Virus record (IMG/VR): IMGVR_UViG_3300020478_000003
Location: 60,361-124,360 of that record
DNA length: 64,000 nucleotides
Origin: a virus
Direction: 5' to 3' (one strand)
Part shown: positions 14,445-26,616 of the stretch, piece by piece
How the letters are laid out: every line of letters begins with the position of its first letter
Position numbering within the stretch: the stretch's first letter is position 1
The notes under the pieces: generated by a model
Database searches by the model: none
Seen by the model: the letters and a program-made list of their open reading frames with translations, nothing else
Told to the model about the DNA's origin: nothing
Position numbers and translations under genes: made by a program

Positions 14445-15686
14445 ATGACAAATAAACGAGTTGATGTGAATGAGTTTGGTGCTTGTGCTAAAAAAATGTT
14501 TGGCACTCTTGATGTCACCAAAGCAAATATGGAAGCGATTTCCGCTACTTACAATATTTGCATCCCATCCAAAGTTAAATACGCCGAAGTCGTGTCGAGT
14601 GACCCGATTGTTCGCCGTATCCCAGTTACCGAAGAAGTTGAAGCACCGGAAAGGATTTCAGCTACTACAGCCATTGAGCCGTTGACTGATACCGAACTTG
14701 CTGAACACCAAAAAGCAGTATCGGTTACTTCAATTGTTGCTGAAGCCGAAAGAACTTCAGCCGCTTCACTTGATACTTCCATTTCATTTATTCCTAGAGT
14801 AGACAAATCTTTTGTTGCCTGGGGAAACTGTGGAGATATTAAACGTATTTTAAAAAGCCGACTTTTCTTCCCAGTCTATTTGACCGGGATGTCCGGAAAC
14901 GGAAAAACTTTTGGGATTGAGCAGACTTGTGCCAGTCTTAGTCGGGAAATGATCCGAGTTAACTTTACCGCCGAAACGGATGAAGATGATCTGTTCGGTG
15001 GTTTTCGTCTTGTAAATGGCGAAACAGTTTTTCAATACGGGCCGGTTGTCGAAGCGATGAAACGCGGAGCAGTTTTGCTTTTAGACGAAATCGACCTTGG
15101 ATCTCACAAAATTATGGCGCTTCAGTCTGTCCTTGAGGGAAAGGGATACTTCATTAAAAAGCGTGCCGAGTGGGTTGAGCCCGCTGACGGATTTACAATC
15201 ATCGCAACCGCCAACACCAAGGGTAAGGGAAGTGATGACGGACGTTTTATCGGAACCAATGTTCTGAATGAAGCCTTCCTCGACCGATTCTCAATTACAA
15301 TGTATCAGCCCTATCCTTCGGAAGCCGTAGAGAGAAAAATTCTCTTCAAAGCCGCCGCTGGATTCGGAATTGAATCTGAAGCCGTTGAAAAATTTATTCC
15401 CAATCTTACAATGTGGGGAGACATTATCAGGAAAACTTTTGAAGAGGGCGGAGTGGACGAAATCGTTTCAACCCGTCGTCTTGTTGATATCCTGAAATCC
15501 TTTTCGATTTTCGGTGATCGCGGAAAATCAATCAGAATGGCGATTGAACGTTTCGATGATGAAACCCGAGAATCCTTTATGTCTCTTTATGAGAAAATTG
15601 ATGCCGGTGTCGGACTCGAAAATGTTGAGGGAGGATCCGAAATCGGAACAGATGGCGGAACTGAAGATGACTCCGCAAACGAATAA
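14445..15686 (+). CDS. CobS/MoxR-like AAA+ ATPase
   Basis: GMSGNGKT Walker A, LLLDEID Walker B, TANTKGKG and NEAFLDRF motifs. Confidence 0.92.
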   Translation: MTNKRVDVNEFGACAKKMFGTLDVTKANMEAISATYNICIPSKVKYAEVVSSDPIVRRIPVTEEVEAPERISATTAIEPLTDTELAEHQKAVSVTSIVAEAERTSAASLDTSISFIPRVDKSFVAWGNCGDIKRILKSRLFFPVYLTGMSGNGKTFGIEQTCASLSREMIRVNFTAETDEDDLFGGFRLVNGETVFQYGPVVEAMKRGAVLLLDEIDLGSHKIMALQSVLEGKGYFIKKRAEWVEPADGFTIIATANTKGKGSDDGRFIGTNVLNEAFLDRFSITMYQPYPSEAVERKILFKAAAGFGIESEAVEKFIPNLTMWGDIIRKTFEEGGVDEIVSTRRLVDILKSFSIFGDRGKSIRMAIERFDDETRESFMSLYEKIDAGVGLENVEGGSEIGTDGGTEDDSANE

Positions 15687-21257: not shown

Positions 21258-21995
21258 ATGTCTGAAATAGAAACGGAAGACGGTACGATAGAAGAAGCCG
21301 ATTTTGATTGGGGGTTCTCTTTTTCTGATACTGATGAAGCCGATGCAAATGAAGCGGTTGTAACTAAAACGACACAAGCAATATCGTCCGATTTAGGACC
21401 AATCACTCAAAAACTAGATGCAATAATAGCCCTAATCCCTGCTGAAGGAGTAACAAATACCGAATCCGTAGATGTTGATCTGAGTAGTCTTGAAAATAAA
21501 TTGGATCAAATTATTGCACTTGAAAAGGTAGATGCACTTACCGCTGGTGATATGCCTGATATGACTCCGATTCAAAATAAATTGGATGTGATTGAAGCAA
21601 ATCAAGCTAAAATTTTAGCGAAAGATACCACAGTCAATGCTCCAGAAGTGAATGTAGATTTGAGTAGCATTGAAGATAAACTCGATACAATGGAACAGGC
21701 AGTCAATGAAGTCCGTGAGTTAGATTTTGATGGTGACGGACAAGTAGATTTTGGTGATATCAATAATAATTTAGCCGATCTATTAGCTAGACAGGAAGCC
21801 TCTGAAGCTGAACTGGAAGCAAAAAAGACCGAATTTGAAGAGTATAAAACTAAGAAACTTAAGGCATTGGAAAAATTGATTATTCCACTGCTGAGGAATC
21901 TAAAGAGTAACCCGGATAAAGCATACATACATTGGCCTGGTAGAGCACCAGTATTAGATGCACAGATATCAAAAATACTTGCTTTAACTAGATAA
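21258..21995 (+). CDS. Coiled-coil protein with internal repeats and a conserved T4-like C-terminus
   Basis: DFDWGFSF N-motif, four KLD repeats, DFDGDGQVD motif, C-terminal PLLRNLKSNPDKAYIHWPGR. Confidence 0.75.
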   Translation: MSEIETEDGTIEEADFDWGFSFSDTDEADANEAVVTKTTQAISSDLGPITQKLDAIIALIPAEGVTNTESVDVDLSSLENKLDQIIALEKVDALTAGDMPDMTPIQNKLDVIEANQAKILAKDTTVNAPEVNVDLSSIEDKLDTMEQAVNEVRELDFDGDGQVDFGDINNNLADLLARQEASEAELEAKKTEFEEYKTKKLKALEKLIIPLLRNLKSNPDKAYIHWPGRAPVLDAQISKILALTR

Positions 21996-22378
21996 TGGCT
22001 TACTCCGAAAAAGTATTAGATCACTATGAAAGACCACATAATGTTGGTTCTTTGGACCCTGGGGATAGTAGTGTTGGGACTGGTCTTGTGGGTGCTCCAG
22101 AATGTGGTGATGTTATGAAACTACAGATTAAAGTAGACGAAAATGAAAAGATTGTTGATGCCAAATTTAAAACTTTTGGGTGCGGATCTGCAATTGCGGC
22201 TTCTTCTCTGGCAACTGAGTGGATTAAGGATAAGTCTTTGGACGAAGCAAGTACGGTTCAGAATACTCACATCGTGGAAGAACTTTCACTACCACCTGTC
22301 AAAATTCATTGCTCTGTATTGGCGGAAGACGCTATTAAAGGAGCGATTGCAGATTATAGGAACAAAAACAAACATTGA
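21995..22378 (+). CDS. iscU: Fe-S cluster scaffold IscU
   Basis: MAYSEKVLDHY, APECGDVM, FGCGSAIA and LPPVKIHCS; all three Cys present. Confidence 0.97.
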   Translation: MAYSEKVLDHYERPHNVGSLDPGDSSVGTGLVGAPECGDVMKLQIKVDENEKIVDAKFKTFGCGSAIAASSLATEWIKDKSLDEASTVQNTHIVEELSLPPVKIHCSVLAEDAIKGAIADYRNKNKH

Positions 22379-23040
22379 AGAAAAACATTGAAGATTATGT
22401 TTTTCACAAAAAGAATTTTTTAGATGATGATTTTTGTGAAAAAGCTATAAGTGATTTGAATACGTGCAAGTGGAAGAAACACGGATGGTATATACCGACT
22501 ACATCTTTACCAGTATTTGAAAATATACCTCCGGCTGGAGTAGAAAAAGAATCAGAAGTTATAGATATTGAAAAGATGCACCCTGCCACTTATGCAGGCG
22601 ACCTTATTCAATCAGGAGATCCAGAAATGACTCTCCAGAATAAAGTTGAAGATTTAAACGATGTAATAATAAAAAAATTACGAGGTGCTTTAGAGGAATA
22701 TGTTCGGGGCTTAGATTTTTATTGGTTTAGTGGATGGGAAGGATATACTGGAATAAAATTTATACGATACTTCCCAGGTCAAGAAATGAAAGTTCATTGC
22801 GACCATATTCATTCTATGTTTGATGGTGTACGAAAAGGAGTTCCGATCCTTTCTATTATAGGTCATTTAAATGATGATTATGAAGGTGGTGAAACCTATA
22901 TGTTTGATGACAAAGACGGAGATTTATTGGAAACAGAAAAAGGAGATTTGTATGTATTTCCTTCTTGTTTTCTGTTTCCTCATTATGTTACCCCGGTGAC
23001 AAAAGGAACTAGATATTCTTATGTTAGCTGGGTTTGGTAA
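22375..23040 (+). CDS. 2OG-Fe(II) oxygenase (prolyl hydroxylase-like)
   Basis: HCD...LNDDYEGGE...H.V.PV..G.RYS. Confidence 0.9.
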   Translation: MKKNIEDYVFHKKNFLDDDFCEKAISDLNTCKWKKHGWYIPTTSLPVFENIPPAGVEKESEVIDIEKMHPATYAGDLIQSGDPEMTLQNKVEDLNDVIIKKLRGALEEYVRGLDFYWFSGWEGYTGIKFIRYFPGQEMKVHCDHIHSMFDGVRKGVPILSIIGHLNDDYEGGETYMFDDKDGDLLETEKGDLYVFPSCFLFPHYVTPVTKGTRYSYVSWVW

Positions 23041-23044
23041 GATC

Positions 23045-23258
23045 AGCTGGGCAAACGACACTAAAGCCAGAATCGAAGGGACGGACTTCGATGCCTGTCG
23101 TGAATAAAGTGCTCCACCTAGATGAAGTTAAGAGATTCTCCTCCAAAAGTCCCGACGGTACGTGCCACAGGGTGAAGGAGTAGAAACTAATTGCTACACA
23201 AACACCGAGAGCGGTGATGCAAAAGTTTCTTTCGAGATAGTCTAGGCTCTACCCAGCT
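23045..23258 (+). ncRNA. Putative structured non-coding RNA with pseudoknot (family unassigned)
   Basis: Closing stem AGCTGGG/CCCAGCT; internal ACGACA/TGTCGT, ATCGAAG/CTTCGAT, CCTAGA/TCTAGG, CTCCT/AGGAG, AGAAACT/AGTTTCT, CACCG/CGGTG; loop GGAC complementary to GTCC at 23149. Confidence 0.7.
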
Positions 23259-23288
23259 TTATATTATGACTCAAGACAAATAAAGAAA

Positions 23289-23435
23289 ATGGCTCGATCA
23301 GCTTTTAAACAGGCAAATGCAAAGACCTGGCAATCAGTACCCAAAAGAACTTCAATAGGATGTTCTAGTAATTCCCGACCTAAAAATAAGCATAAGAGAA
23401 AGGGTTGGAAGAAATATAGAGGACAAGGAAAATGA
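23289..23435 (+). CDS. Small basic protein ending KKYRGQGK (48 aa), not in the ORF track
   Basis: MARSAFKQANAKTWQSVPKRTSIG...KNKHKRKGWKKYRGQGK; this C-terminal motif is recalled from marine T4-like phages. Confidence 0.75.
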   Translation: MARSAFKQANAKTWQSVPKRTSIGCSSNSRPKNKHKRKGWKKYRGQGK

Positions 23436-23536
23436 ATCCTTGGAAATGGTATAAGGAGTGGCTGAGTTTTACTGACTACGCCACAATAGCTTTCATCGCA
23501 ACCCTAATAGGAATATATTGGTTATATTTTGATTAG
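23432..23536 (+). CDS. Small membrane peptide (34 aa)
   Basis: ATGA coupling; hydrophobic C-half. Confidence 0.5.
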   Translation: MNPWKWYKEWLSFTDYATIAFIATLIGIYWLYFD

Positions 23537-23547
23537 AGGAGGACCAA

Positions 23548-23718
23548 ATGAAAATGGTATGGTTAATATATCTACAATTTTTGTTTGTTGTCGGACAATT
23601 CAACGGAAAGAAAAACTGGATTGACCGAGAGATACTAAGGTGCTATACGAAATTGGATGAATTGAAGATCAATTACGTTAAGATACACAGGTTCGATGAT
23701 TTCCAAGAACGAAATTAG
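23548..23718 (+). CDS. Small hypothetical protein (56 aa)
   Basis: AGGAGG SD; hydrophobic N-terminus. Confidence 0.6.
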   Translation: MKMVWLIYLQFLFVVGQFNGKKNWIDREILRCYTKLDELKINYVKIHRFDDFQERN

Positions 23719-23863
23719 AATCGTTGATATGGAGCACTATAAAAAATGGGGCTGGGCTAGTTGTTTTGAATGTGATGAAACATTTAAAGACTTAACAGAA
23801 CTAGACGAGCATCAGGAGAAACACGTTATAGAGGAAAAATGTTTGAGTATGAAGGAAGAGTAA
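23696..23863 (+). CDS. Small C2H2 zinc-finger protein (55 aa; alternative start 23729)
   Basis: CFECDETFKDLTELDEHQEKH matches C-x2-C-x3-F-x5-L-x2-H-x3-H. Confidence 0.65.
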   Translation: MISKNEIRIVDMEHYKKWGWASCFECDETFKDLTELDEHQEKHVIEEKCLSMKEE

Positions 23864-24309
23864 AAAGAATTGTTGACGGAGATACCATAGATTCTTACAT
23901 AGATTTGGGATTCAATGTTCACGTTGATAAACGAATCAGATTTATGGGTATCGATACTCCCGAATCTCGTACCAGAGACTTAGACGAAAAAAGATACGGA
24001 CTTGGAGCTAAATATCGATTAACAGAATTGTTGAAAAGTAATGATAATAAATTTATCCTTAAATCATCTGGTACAGGTAAGTTTGGACGAGTACTCGGAG
24101 AAATATTCATCCCTCCAGTGGATGATGATCAAATCGAATTAACTCTTATTAATGGAACAAGATACATAAACGTTAATCAAAAGATGATTGAAGAGGGACA
24201 CGCCGTAGCATATTTCGGTGGGTCTAAACAAGAAGTAAAAGATGCTCTTCTGGAAGCACGGCTGATATCTAGTGAATACGTAGAAAAGAACATAGAACCA
24301 CTTGGCTAA
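23839..24309 (+). CDS. Thermonuclease (SNase-like)
   Basis: RIVDGDT, RFMGIDTPE and GKFGRVLG motifs. Confidence 0.9.
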   Translation: MFEYEGRVKRIVDGDTIDSYIDLGFNVHVDKRIRFMGIDTPESRTRDLDEKRYGLGAKYRLTELLKSNDNKFILKSSGTGKFGRVLGEIFIPPVDDDQIELTLINGTRYINVNQKMIEEGHAVAYFGGSKQEVKDALLEARLISSEYVEKNIEPLG

Positions 24310-24397: not shown

Positions 24398-25006
24398 ATG
24401 AAAGATGGTGTAGTACTGGATCTTGAGACCTTAGGTAGTGTTAATAATTCAGTAATTTTATCAGTTGGTATGGTCGCAGTGGACTCTACCAAAGATTATA
24501 CGTTTGATGAACTGATTAAAGACGGTTATTACGCTAAACTGGATGTCAAGAGTCAAGTTGATGCTGGAAGAAAAATTCATAAAGATACTCTCCAGTGGTG
24601 GAGCGAACAAGGAGAAGCCGCTCAACATATATTAAAACCCTCCCCCAAAGATATGCACTGGTCTAAGTTACGAGAGGATATGATCTCGTGGCTCACCGAT
24701 CAAGGCGTAGATACCCATAAAGTAAAAGTCTATTCACGAGGATCCCACTTCGATTTCGGTCTTTTACACGATCTCTTTCGCATTACAGAAGGTGTAGGTC
24801 AAGATGATCTACCTTGGCGTTACTGGAATATCCACGATTCAAAAACAGTAGTGTTTACATTACTTGGACGGGATGTCTGGGATATGGGAGTAGAGCCTGA
24901 AGGCTTTATTCATCACGATTGTCTCCACGATGCCGCGAGAGAATATTTAACAATACAGTCCGCTCTTTATATGTTTCAAGACACATTATCGGGAGATCCA
25001 TTTTGA
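24398..25006 (+). CDS. dexA: DEDDh 3'-5' exonuclease (DexA-like)
   Basis: VLDLETLG, SRGSHFD and HDCLHDA motifs. Confidence 0.75.
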   Translation: MKDGVVLDLETLGSVNNSVILSVGMVAVDSTKDYTFDELIKDGYYAKLDVKSQVDAGRKIHKDTLQWWSEQGEAAQHILKPSPKDMHWSKLREDMISWLTDQGVDTHKVKVYSRGSHFDFGLLHDLFRITEGVGQDDLPWRYWNIHDSKTVVFTLLGRDVWDMGVEPEGFIHHDCLHDAAREYLTIQSALYMFQDTLSGDPF

Positions 25007-26616
25007 AAAATATTGTCGTAGTAGGTGGAGGATCAGCAGGATGGATGACCGCTACTACTTTATTACATCAATTTCCAGATAAAAAAATTACGCTTGTAGA
25101 ATCACCTAATGTTCCTAATATAGGAGTAGGAGAAAGTACGGTCGATGGTAGTCAGAGCGGATTTTCTGGTATTGTTGATTGGCTAAGATTGGTGGAAATT
25201 GAAGATAATGATTGGATGCCCCATTGTGATGCTATTCATAAACTAAGTATCGGATATAAGGATTGGTATAGAAAAGACTCTGGGATATTTCATTTCCCAT
25301 TTGGTCCAGAATATCTTCAGCATAATAATTATGGATTTAAACTGAACGATTGGCACCTCAAAAAAATATTTTATCCTGAAACTCCATTAAGTGATTATGC
25401 AGAGACTTTTTATCCAGGAATGGCTTTAATAAATCAGAACAAAGCAATTCATTATGATCCACCATTTTGGAAAAAAGCTGATATTGAGGTTCAGCAATAC
25501 TCAGGATGGTCTTATCAATTTGATGCTACTAAATTTGGATTCTATTTAAGAGACCGATACTGCAAAGCTAGATATGCTGAAAATTTTACTCATATTCAAG
25601 CAGAGGTATTAGGAATACCTCAAAATGATGAAGGTATTAAATATCTCATATTGGACAATGGACAAAAACTTGAAGCAGATTTGTTTGTAGACTGTACTGG
25701 ATTCAAATCGTTATTATTGACTAAAACCTTTGAGGTAGAATTTGAATCCGTAGAAGATTTCATTCCCAACAATTATGCTTGGGCTACAAAAATTCCTTAC
25801 AAAGATCCAGAGAAACAAATTGTGAATTATACAATGTGTTCAGCTATTGAGAATGGTTGGATATGGGAAATCCCGTTGTGGTCTAGAATGGGTGCTGGGT
25901 ATGTATTCTCAGATAAATTCGTTTCTACAGAACACGCTTTATGTGAGTTTAAAGCAGAACTACAGAAAAAGGGATATGAAGATGCGGAAGAATTAGATTA
26001 TCACCTGATTCCAATGCGATGTGGTATTCAAAAAAGATTGTGGGTTAAGAATGCTGTTGCTATTGGACTATCGGCAGGATTTGTTGAACCACTACAATCT
26101 ACTGGATTACAGACTATATATCAATTTCTCTTTAATTTGGTTCGTGCATTATCTAGAGGTCGAATAGGTGAATGGGACAGAAGAGAATTTAACACTAAAT
26201 GCCACGATCATTTTTATGCTTTTGGAGGAACCGTTGCTCTTTTATACTCATTAAGTCATAGAGATGATACGGAATATTGGAGAGATATTCAGACCGGGCT
26301 CCATTATCCAGAAAATTTATTTACGGAAGGTCACACACCTGGTTTTCCTAGAATGTTTACTCGTTACTATGACGAAAGAAATAAACAACTGGAGTTTAAT
26401 TTGGGAAGTGCAGTACACGCATTGTCTGCCGGTATGAATTGGAATCCAATATATAAATTGAATCCAGCTTTGTCGGGTGAAGATATAGAAAAGACAAAAG
26501 AGTGGGTGGAAATTTTTATACAACAAACCGACGAAAGAAAAAGGAAGTGGAATGATGAGATAAAAGAATTTCCAAGTCCATATCAATACTCAAAAGACAA
26601 TATTTACAATGGATAA
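25003..26616 (+). CDS. Flavin-dependent tryptophan halogenase-like protein
   Basis: GGGSAG FAD motif, IGVGEST, conserved Lys in CDAIHKLSI, FVDCTGF, WIWEIP, GFVEPL; TTG start at 25003. Confidence 0.9.
   Translation: MKNIVVVGGGSAGWMTATTLLHQFPDKKITLVESPNVPNIGVGESTVDGSQSGFSGIVDWLRLVEIEDNDWMPHCDAIHKLSIGYKDWYRKDSGIFHFPFGPEYLQHNNYGFKLNDWHLKKIFYPETPLSDYAETFYPGMALINQNKAIHYDPPFWKKADIEVQQYSGWSYQFDATKFGFYLRDRYCKARYAENFTHIQAEVLGIPQNDEGIKYLILDNGQKLEADLFVDCTGFKSLLLTKTFEVEFESVEDFIPNNYAWATKIPYKDPEKQIVNYTMCSAIENGWIWEIPLWSRMGAGYVFSDKFVSTEHALCEFKAELQKKGYEDAEELDYHLIPMRCGIQKRLWVKNAVAIGLSAGFVEPLQSTGLQTIYQFLFNLVRALSRGRIGEWDRREFNTKCHDHFYAFGGTVALLYSLSHRDDTEYWRDIQTGLHYPENLFTEGHTPGFPRMFTRYYDERNKQLEFNLGSAVHALSAGMNWNPIYKLNPALSGEDIEKTKEWVEIFIQQTDERKRKWNDEIKEFPSPYQYSKDNIYNG

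What the first reader, a model, noticed from the sequence alone, without database searches (positions are those of the whole stretch)
23045..23258. Unannotated ~214 nt multi-stem RNA with a likely pseudoknot
Seen: an ORF-free, GC-richer insert between a 2OG oxygenase and a run of small ORFs, closed by a perfect 7 bp stem (AGCTGGG/CCCAGCT). It has at least six nested helices: ACGACA/TGTCGT, ATCGAAG/CTTCGAT, CCTAGA/TCTAGG, CTCCT/AGGAG, AGAAACT/AGTTTCT with TTGC/GCAA, and CACCG/CGGTG. The hairpin loop GGAC(GGA) is complementary to GTCC(C) at 23149. It is not a tRNA cloverleaf or an obvious tmRNA. Inference: a phage ncRNA, ribozyme or riboswitch-like leader. Marine phage motifs such as manA have a similar size, but I cannot assign it.
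Basis: partly seen in the sequence, partly recalled or inferred. Interest (0 to 1): 0.7.

Follow-up and report, generated by a model that had tools for sequence, protein, structure and literature searches.

The report
New structured RNA of marine phages
The stretch encodes a small, elaborately folded non-coding RNA that recurs in many uncultured marine T4-like phages, often beside their tRNA genes, matches no catalogued RNA family, and has no known function.

Summary
Window 23045-23258 (+) is a real structured RNA gene. I found 156 matches (132 distinct sequences) in 150 marine viral and metagenomic contigs. On 36 sequences, 95.5% of pair cells are standard pairs and 32 of 39 pairs show changes on both sides. 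None of 500 shuffles reached any measure. G-U pairs outnumber A-C 111 to 10, so the + strand is the RNA.

The fold is a three-way junction: a closing helix P1, a 5' arm ending in a 7-nt loop GGACGGA, and a 3' arm. The junction strands are nearly invariant. The window carries the long form, with an extra hairpin (P8).

The GGAC/GTCC pseudoknot and the ACGACA/TGTCGT helix are peculiar to the window.

There is no Rfam 15 match, no tRNA or tmRNA, and no match to the T4 rnaC/rnaD locus. GenBank phages and bacterial genomes gave no convincing homologue.

Some copies lie 6-13 nt from tRNA genes, and some follow a perfect sigma-70 promoter. Downstream genes vary. I read it as a stable, trans-acting RNA of the phage tRNA/early-gene module. 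Its function is unknown.

The parts
23045..23051 (+). P1, 5' arm of the closing helix (AGCTGGG)
   Evidence: Pairs with 23252-23258. All 7 pairs show changes on both sides among 36 sequences, and 97% of cells are paired.
23052..23056 (+). J1/2 junction strand CAAAC (family consensus YAAAY, followed by GAC)
   Evidence: AAA.GAC is at least 95% conserved across both subtypes, in 76 distinct full-length sequences.
23057..23114 (+). 5' arm. P2: 23057-23061 with 23109-23114. P3: 23066-23071 with 23094-23101. P4 hairpin: 23072-23078 with 23086-23092, loop GGACGGA at 23079-23085.
   Evidence: Model-based mapping. P2, P3 and P4 all have pairs changed on both sides. The loop plus its closing bases reads GGGACGGAC in 65 of 76 distinct type A sequences.
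23117..23123 (+). P5, 5' arm (CCTAGAT)
   Evidence: Pairs with 23240-23246. 6 of 7 pairs are changed on both sides, and the U-G pair at the end is kept in 30 of 34 cells.
23124..23137 (+). J5/6 strand GAAGTTAAGAGATT; with T23123 it holds the conserved UGAAGUUAAG
   Evidence: UGAA.UU.A is at least 95% conserved in both subtypes.
23138..23180 (+). P6 and its inner parts. CTC 23138-23140 pairs with GAG 23234-23236. CTCC 23141-23144 pairs with GGAG 23177-23180. P7: CCC 23151-23153 with GGG 23170-23172. Apical hairpin 23157-23166 (GGT-ACGT-GCC).
   Evidence: The hairpin pair G-C changes to C-G in relatives, and the U-G wobble is replaced by C-A in two sequences.
23182..23230 (+). P8, an extra hairpin of the long form (AGAAACT/AGTTTCT, TTGC/GCAA, CACCG/CGGTG)
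   Evidence: Present in 17 of 76 distinct full-length type A sequences and absent from the roughly 160-nt short form. Pairing looks compensated by eye, but there is no RNAalifold consensus.
23240..23246 (+). P5, 3' arm (GTCTAGG)
23247..23251 (+). J5/1 junction strand CTCTA (family GCYCUR)
23252..23258 (+). P1, 3' arm (CCCAGCT), followed by a U-rich tail TTTATATTAT
22375..23040 (+). Upstream neighbour: 2OG-Fe(II) oxygenase gene; its stop codon lies 4 nt before P1
   Evidence: PF13640, E 7e-12; phrog_61.
23289..23435 (+). Downstream neighbour: 48-aa Lys/Arg-rich ORF (phrog_516, function unknown)
   Evidence: An ORF with a similar start follows the RNA in the related long-form loci L025, L021 and L148.

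Best explanation
Window 23045-23258 (+) is a gene for a stable, structured, non-coding RNA. It belongs to a family not in Rfam, carried by uncultured marine T4-like phages.

Shown: the RNA folds into a three-way junction. P1 closes it. A 5' arm (P2-P3-P4) ends in a 7-nt purine-rich loop. A 3' arm (P5-P6-P7) ends in a GGU-NNNN-GCC hairpin. The junction strands are nearly invariant: YAAAYGAC, GUGCUCUAC, UGAAGUUAAG, GCYCUR. The window has the long form, with an added hairpin P8. A sister subtype (type B) has the same core but other loops, and can sit in tandem with type A or in its place.

Inferred: the RNA is made either from its own sigma-70-type early promoter or as part of a polycistronic transcript with tRNAs or upstream genes. 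It would be cut out by the host's tRNA/RNA-processing nucleases, protected by its 7-13 bp closing helix. It would then act in trans as a folded binding surface for a host or phage factor, most plausibly one tied to tRNA or translation. It would not regulate the gene next to it.
For: Family and structure:
- There are 156 model matches, 132 of them distinct, in 150 loci.
- There were 0 matches in 918,555 bases of 100 unrelated viral loci. The 8 chance pattern loci and the 20 bacterial loci also gave none.
- 95.5% of 1351 cells are paired, 32 of 39 pairs change on both sides, and 0 of 500 shuffles reach any of five measures. Slid controls give 28-47% paired.
- An independent RNAalifold run on type A gave 31 pairs, 18 compensated. 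On type B it gave 48 pairs, 13 compensated, with the same architecture.

Strand: G-U 111 against A-C 10, so 95.5% of cells pair on + and 88.0% would pair on -. The RNA also has the same orientation as the flanking tRNAs and promoters.

Independent gene:
- A perfect TTGACA-17-TATAAT ends 17-18 nt before the model start in 13 of 119 distinct upstream contexts.
- A complete 177-kb phage genome has exactly one copy.

tRNA module:
- A same-strand tRNA lies within 40 nt downstream in 15 of 121 contexts that have room, with gaps of 3-13 nt.
- A same-strand tRNA lies within 40 nt upstream in 10 of 138, with gaps of 7-8 nt.
- Five more contexts show a 99-102 nt gap to the next called tRNA. In the three whose sequence I read (L022, L153, L172) a tRNA-Tyr-like gene missed by ARAGORN sits just downstream.

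Not a leader: downstream neighbours differ. They are tRNA-Asn, tRNA-Asp or tRNA-Tyr-like genes, a phrog_1574 gene before gp45, or the phrog_516 small ORF.

Interchangeable subtypes: type B occupies the same promoter context as type A in L231, and A-B tandems occur in L024 and L214.
Against: - No transcript evidence. No RNA run holds the stretch, and the one metatranscriptome laid on it gave nothing. This is neutral, not negative.
- In the window's own 124-kb contig (69% complete) there is no tRNA gene at all, so the RNA does not need phage tRNAs next to it.
- About three quarters of copies are not beside a tRNA.
- The 13 promoter cases mostly share one upstream sequence family, so they are not 13 independent events. 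3 of 137 control windows also scored 12 of 12.
- The window itself has only a weak promoter-like site (9 of 12, within shuffle expectation), and the RNA begins 4 nt after the oxygenase stop codon.
- Nothing identifies the binding partner.
- Near-invariant junction nucleotides (22 unpaired positions at least 95% conserved) are as typical of ribozymes and ligand-binding RNAs as of protein-binding RNAs.
Confidence: 0.55

Rival explanations
1. It is a cis-acting leader or riboswitch-like sensor. The conserved junction binds a ligand or protein, and formation of P1 followed by the U-rich tail terminates or permits transcription into whatever lies downstream.
For: The junction nucleotides are highly conserved. 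A U-rich tract follows P1 in most copies, for example UUUUAU directly after an extended 11-13 bp P1. Type A and type B occur in tandem, as some riboswitch aptamers do. In the window and three related long-form loci a small basic ORF starts about 30-45 nt downstream.
Against: Downstream genes are unrelated and include tRNAs at 3-13 nt, which leaves no room for an expression platform. No alternative pairing competing with P1 is conserved: the top covarying pairs are all nested helices. No riboswitch family matched.
Confidence: 0.1
2. It is a new self-cleaving or trans-cleaving ribozyme that helps to cut polycistronic tRNA/mRNA transcripts.
For: The spacing to flanking tRNAs is fixed and short: 7-8 nt upstream and 3-13 nt downstream. 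The unpaired core nucleotides in a compact multi-helix junction are invariant. As recalled, not checked in any call here: HDV-like 'theta' ribozymes beside phage tRNAs have been reported.
Against: No known self-cleaving family matches, even at E up to 10. Most copies are not beside tRNAs. Copies with their own promoter and a closing helix at both ends need no self-cleavage.
Confidence: 0.1
3. It is a building block of an RNA-only multimer, a small counterpart of the phage RNAs ROOL and GOLLD. Those also lie near tRNA islands and form cages.
For: The genomic niche is the same. Passages of bioRxiv 10.1101/2024.12.08.627333 read say ROOL and GOLLD are encoded in phages and prophages, 'often near tRNA islands'. 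The apical loop ACGU of type A is self-complementary and nearly invariant.
Against: Type B has AUGC or AUAC in that loop, which is not self-complementary. The RNA is 160-220 nt, against roughly 580 nt for ROOL (recalled) and many GOLLD members above 800 nt. No covariation supports a loop-loop contact. ROOL and GOLLD are Rfam families, and no Rfam model matched.
Confidence: 0.08
4. It is a 3'-end structure of the upstream mRNA, acting as a stabiliser or terminator, with no function of its own.
For: In the window and many relatives it starts within a few bases of, or overlaps, the upstream stop codon. A U-rich tail follows P1.
Against: A simple stabiliser would not need about 22 near-invariant unpaired nucleotides or two conserved arms. 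The upstream genes differ. Some copies follow a tRNA or their own promoter instead of an ORF.
Confidence: 0.07

Closest known systems
Phage T4 stable RNAs rnaC (species 1) and rnaD (species 2)
   Same: Small RNAs of unknown function from a T4-type phage, lying directly beside a tRNA gene on the same strand. In T4 the order on the transcribed (minus) strand is tRNA-Arg, rnaD, rnaC, with gaps of 1 and 6 nt.
   Different: There is no sequence or structure likeness: model R1 finds nothing in the T4 locus at E up to 1, and nhmmer finds nothing either. T4 rnaC carries a tRNA-like T arm (GGTTCGAATCC, read). The marine RNA has none, and ARAGORN calls nothing there. Sizes are 139 and 119 nt against 160-220 nt.
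ROOL and GOLLD RNAs (Rfam families; phage and prophage RNAs near tRNA islands)
   Same: Phage-borne, elaborately structured RNAs with no known partner or function, often next to tRNA genes (passages read).
   Different: They are several times larger. No match to any Rfam model, these included. No evidence of multimer contacts here.
Candidate structured RNAs predicted from IMG/VR (Fremin and Bhatt 2023, PMC10690425)
   Same: Same source collection and same kind of evidence (covariation). That paper reports 8,495 candidates from IMG/VR, some tRNA-like or overlapping tRNA predictions (passages read).
   Different: The main-text passages I read name no motif of this size beside tRNAs.
manA RNA motif
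   Same: A structured RNA motif of marine phages of comparable size (recalled).
   Different: No match to any Rfam model, manA included, in the window at gathering threshold or at E up to 10 around the site.

Membership tests
Any Rfam 15 family (manA, glnA/Downstream-peptide, riboswitches, self-cleaving ribozymes, RNase P, 5S rRNA, 6S, Y RNA, ROOL, GOLLD and others) | Match to the family's covariance model at or near its gathering score | tested here: not met
   0 matches in the whole window at gathering. At E up to 10 on 22900-23400 there were 5 noise matches, the best 16.3 bits against a cut-off of 47, and none spans the RNA. One noise match on the type A + type B tandem of L024.
tRNA / tmRNA | Cloverleaf or tRNA-like domain with a T arm; a tag reading frame for tmRNA | tested here: not met
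   ARAGORN found 0 genes in the window and 0 in the whole 124-kb contig with tmRNA search on. By reading, there is no T-arm sequence in the family consensus.
T4 rnaC/rnaD-type tRNA-cluster stable RNAs | Location inside a phage tRNA cluster, same strand, a few nt from a tRNA | tested here: inconclusive
   Met in a minority of copies: 15 of 121 downstream and 10 of 138 upstream. Not met in the window's own contig, which has no tRNA.
T4 rnaC/rnaD-type tRNA-cluster stable RNAs | Sequence or structure likeness to T4 rnaC/rnaD | tested here: not met
   R1 and nhmmer find nothing in AF158101 69000-74500.
Riboswitch / cis-regulatory leader | Consistent class of downstream genes and an expression platform that competes with the aptamer | tested here: not met
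   Downstream features differ: tRNAs at 3-13 nt, a phrog_1574 gene, a phrog_516 ORF. No conserved alternative pairing.
Riboswitch / cis-regulatory leader | Ligand-dependent structural change | not testable with these tools
   Needs in-line probing or binding assays.
Self-cleaving ribozyme | Site-specific self-scission | not testable with these tools
   Only the absence of matches to known ribozyme models could be shown.
   The three inner pairs are standard in only 4-11 of 36 sequences for either register. No non-nested pair appears among the 45 top covarying column pairs.

The most novel reading that the evidence does not exclude
This is a new functional class of small phage RNA with a catalytic or ligand-/factor-sensing core. 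Its nearly invariant three-way junction would be an active site or binding pocket. The RNA would act on the tRNA/translation machinery, for example by cutting or docking tRNA precursors or by titrating a host translation or RNA-processing factor. Types A and B would be variants with different specificity.
Probability: 0.12. Interest if true: 0.88.

Novelty: new variant of a known kind. Interest (0 to 1): 0.6.

Why it matters
Phage-encoded structured RNAs with no known function that sit beside tRNA genes are a recurring puzzle. T4 species 1 and 2 have been unexplained since the 1970s (recalled). ROOL and GOLLD were recently shown to form RNA-only cages.

This family is small enough (160-220 nt) for direct biochemistry and structure work. 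It has two interchangeable subtypes with a shared core, which gives natural swap experiments. In some phages it is driven by a perfect host-type promoter, which points to strong early expression.

If its target were found, that would reveal a new way in which marine T4-like phages handle host RNA or translation. If not, it is still a well-supported new family for RNA databases and for phage genome annotation.

Tried and rejected
- Expression: no RNA holder was listed for window 22400-23900. The one metatranscriptome from the same sample, laid at 80% likeness on 22800-23500, gave no contig. This says nothing either way.
- GenBank phages (INPHARED): blastn with the window RNA found nothing. With a short type A and a type B sequence at E up to 10 it found only 29-42 nt noise.
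- Bacterial and archaeal genomes: a pattern scan gave 20 stretches, about what I estimated by hand for chance for that pattern. None matched the family profile or the model.
- The 14-mer CTAGATGAAGTTAA was too unspecific: 117 stretches and only one new family member.
- Only 3 of 18 loci with a related 2OG oxygenase carry the RNA downstream, so the RNA is not tied to that gene.
- T4 rnaC/rnaD: no likeness.
- By eye I considered resemblances to RNase P (CCUAGAUGAA, ACGACA), 5S rRNA (GAAGUUAAG), the sarcin-ricin loop, the glutamine riboswitch (GGACGGA), c-di-GMP-I and group I introns. All were recalled from memory, none is supported by a model match, and several of the shared words are not conserved in the family. 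All were dropped.
- A possible tmRNA-like tag frame starting at GCAAACGAC was dropped: there is no T arm and the frame is not conserved.
- J5/1 pairing with J5/6 was checked by eye and shows no correlated change.
- RNAalifold on the P8 segment gave no consensus.
- Promoter scan of the window: 4 sites against 5.5 expected, so not informative.
- Literature: two full-text searches found no description of this RNA. The supplementary tables of PMC10690425, which could list it, are closed.
- The search of earlier findings was not open.

Full report
**What is at the site**

The window is part of a 124,360-base IMG/VR virus record. It is T4-like, with gp43-type DNA polymerase, gp41-type helicase, gp46-type nuclease and topoisomerase II. 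Its polymerase is only about 49% identical to that of the nearest GenBank phages, which are Synechococcus myophages.

Bases 23045-23258 lie between a 2OG-Fe(II) oxygenase gene (22375-23040) and a 48-aa basic ORF (23289-23435, phrog_516). G+C rises to 0.46, against 0.33-0.39 around it.

On its own the sequence does not fold better than chance: z is -1.52, and 17 of 200 shuffles fold as well. The minus strand scores better (z -2.63). So the single sequence proves nothing.

**Relatives**

- Three of 18 loci with a related oxygenase carry a similar stretch downstream. Two of them have a 99-100% identical oxygenase but a visibly diverged RNA with paired changes.
- Conserved words then served as search patterns. 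A two-block pattern gave 39 viral stretches. Thirty-one were true and 8 were chance matches that the later model rejects.
- A more general pattern gave 23 viral stretches.
- I built a covariance model (R1: 161 positions, 39 pairs) from 26 distinct sequences and a hand-checked structure.
- R1 found 36, 100 and 20 matches in these loci. That is 156 matches in 150 loci and 132 distinct sequences.
- R1 found nothing in 918,555 bases of 100 unrelated viral loci.
- R1 also found nothing in the 8 chance loci, the 20 bacterial loci or the T4 tRNA region.

**Structure**

RNAalifold on the MAFFT alignment predicted 31 pairs, 18 of them with compensatory changes. On the model-based alignment of 36 sequences:
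- 95.5% of 1351 cells are standard pairs.
- 32 of 39 pairs have changes on both sides.
- None of 500 column shuffles reaches any of the five measures.
- Sliding the 3' partners by 1-3 columns drops pairing to 28-47%.

That alignment is fitted to the model, which favours the structure. The independent MAFFT and RNAalifold results agree with it.

G-U pairs (111) far outnumber A-C (10), so the + strand is the RNA. This settles the question left open by the minus strand's better single-sequence energy.

The fold is a three-way junction:
- P1 is 7 bp in the window and extends to 11-13 bp in some lineages.
- A junction strand YAAAY follows P1.
- The 5' arm is P2 (GAC(A/U)C with G(U/A)G..UC), P3 (CCAGG/CCUG plus two further pairs), and the P4 hairpin with the 7-nt loop GGACGGA.
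- A short strand follows the 5' arm.
- The 3' arm begins with P5, then the strand UGAAGUUAAG, P6 and P7, and ends in an apical hairpin GGU-ACGU-GCC.
- The strand GCYCUR leads back into the P1 3' arm.

Window coordinates for each element are in the parts list.

There are two size classes. One is a core of about 160 nt. The other, about 205-220 nt, has an extra hairpin P8 inserted in the 3' strand of P6. The window has the long form, as do 17 of 76 distinct full-length type A sequences.

- The ACGACA/TGTCGT helix exists in the window and is used by its minimum-energy fold. Its 3' arm is not kept in relatives, and it conflicts with the covarying P2 and P3.
- The proposed loop contact GGAC/GUCC holds in the window, but relatives read GACC, GGCC or GCCC there. 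The three inner pairs are standard in only 4-11 of 36 sequences.
- The CCC of that word is the 5' strand of P7.
- A mutual-information scan found only nested helices and lineage-linked positions among its 45 best column pairs.

**A sister subtype**

Just downstream of the type A copy in L024 lies a second RNA that R1 detects weakly (34 bits). It defines type B, with 47 distinct sequences. Type B has the same P1, the same junction strands (AAACGAC, GUGCUCUAC, UGAAAUUUAAG, GCUCUAC), P5, P6, P7 and the GGU/GCC hairpin. Its 5' arm differs and ends in the loop AGGUAGA, and it has its own P8.

RNAalifold on 38 type B sequences, not fitted to R1, gave 48 pairs, 13 compensated, in the same architecture. 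Across 76 distinct full-length sequences of both types from one scan, 22 unpaired and 17 paired positions are at least 95% conserved.

Types A and B occur in tandem in L024 and L214, and together in L209 and L146. Two type A copies occur in L213. Type B sits in L231 behind the same promoter and leader that precede type A elsewhere.

**Context**

Among 146 distinct contexts:
- A same-strand tRNA lies within 40 nt downstream in 15 of 121 that have at least 120 nt of room. The gaps are 3-13 nt.
- A same-strand tRNA lies within 40 nt upstream in 10 of 138. The gaps are 7-8 nt.
- Five more show a 99-102 nt gap to the next called tRNA. In the three whose sequence I read (L022, L153, L172) a tRNA-Tyr-like gene that ARAGORN missed sits just downstream.

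In L081 and L173 the RNA sits between tRNA-Asn and tRNA-Asp. In the one complete genome examined (177 kb, CheckV 100%) there is a single copy. Its order is ORF stop, RNA, 6 nt, tRNA-Asn.

Most copies, however, are not beside a tRNA. The window's own contig has one copy and no tRNA gene.

In 13 of 119 distinct upstream contexts a perfect TTGACA-17-TATAAT ends 17-18 nt before the model start. Most of these share one upstream sequence family. L267 is a different one. Three of 137 control windows also scored 12 of 12.

Elsewhere the RNA follows an ORF's stop codon directly, or the ORF ends inside J1/2. A U-rich tract follows P1 in most copies. In one common arrangement the RNA lies between a 121-aa ORF and a phrog_1574 gene that precedes gp45 and gp44. 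This is the same general region as in the window, where it falls between a cobS-like gene and the polymerase.

**What it is not**

- No Rfam 15 family matches at gathering threshold in the window. None matches at E up to 10 around the site or on an A+B tandem.
- ARAGORN finds no tRNA or tmRNA.
- GenBank phages hold no homologue.
- A type A pattern scan of 185,579 species' genomes gave 20 stretches, about what I estimated for chance. None fits the family.
- T4's rnaC and rnaD, which occupy the analogous place next to tRNA-Arg, are unrelated in sequence and structure.

**How it most likely works**

Shown: it is a conserved, strand-specific, multi-helix RNA with an invariant junction. It is present once or twice per phage genome and sits in varied gene contexts. 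In a minority of copies it is packed into tRNA operons at tRNA-like spacing or placed behind a consensus host promoter.

Inferred: it is a stable trans-acting RNA made early. It would be released from longer transcripts by the same host nucleases that trim tRNAs, or transcribed as its own unit. It would act through its junction and loops as a binding surface.

I put about 0.55 on this reading as a whole. That the structured RNA family is real I hold at above 0.95. The specific partner (translation or tRNA machinery) is a guess.

Rivals and my odds:
- cis leader or riboswitch, 0.10
- new ribozyme, 0.10
- RNA-only multimer like ROOL or GOLLD, 0.08
- mere 3' stabiliser of the upstream mRNA, 0.07

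No transcript data could be obtained.

**Novelty**

The kind is known: orphan structured RNAs of phages, often near tRNA islands. Examples are T4 species 1 and 2, and ROOL and GOLLD (passages read). This family is not in Rfam 15, and two full-text searches found no description.

A 2023 survey predicted 8,495 candidate structured RNAs from IMG/VR (PMC10690425, passages read). Its list is in supplementary tables that I could not open, so the family may already be listed there as an unnamed candidate.

Noticed in passing
L024:4932-5129; also L196, L197, L199 and about 45 metagenome loci: A sister RNA (type B) shares the junction core but has the loop AGGUAGA. One subgroup also has a conserved 5' leader hairpin (GTTCTG-TGAC-CAGAAC). 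It may have an outer helix GUGGG/CCCAC beyond P1.
   Followed up: partly
L022, L153 and L172, just downstream of the RNA: A tRNA-like gene with a GTA (Tyr) anticodon loop, a long variable arm and a terminal CCA-like end is not called by ARAGORN. It would explain the constant 99-102 nt gap to the next called tRNA.
   Followed up: partly
window 23289-23435 (+): A 48-aa Lys/Arg-rich ORF (phrog_516, function unknown) starts 30 nt after the RNA. ORFs with a similar start follow the RNA in L025, L021 and L148. It could be an RNA-binding partner. This was not tested.
   Followed up: no
window 21995-22378, 14445-15686, 24919-26616 (+): Auxiliary genes near the RNA: a NifU/IscU-like Fe-S scaffold (PF01592, E 9e-51), a cobS-like AAA ATPase (phrog_249) and a tryptophan-halogenase-like gene (phrog_2928).
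   Followed up: no
L163:9744-10109 (-) and many related loci: The upstream 121-aa ORF ends inside the RNA's J1/2 strand. UAAAUGA offers stop codons in two frames, so the coding gene and the RNA gene overlap by about 20 nt.
   Followed up: partly
L022, L024, L153, L171, L172 and others, 17-46 nt upstream of the RNA: A perfect sigma-70 consensus promoter with a TG-extended -10 box lies in a conserved 80-nt upstream block. The extended P1 of 13 bp begins about 4-5 nt after the expected start site.
   Followed up: partly
window 23043-23260 compared with L002/L004: The flanking oxygenase protein is 99-100% identical, yet the RNA differs at many positions, mostly by paired changes. This suggests either recombination of the RNA cassette or much faster change in the RNA than in the neighbouring gene.
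   Followed up: no
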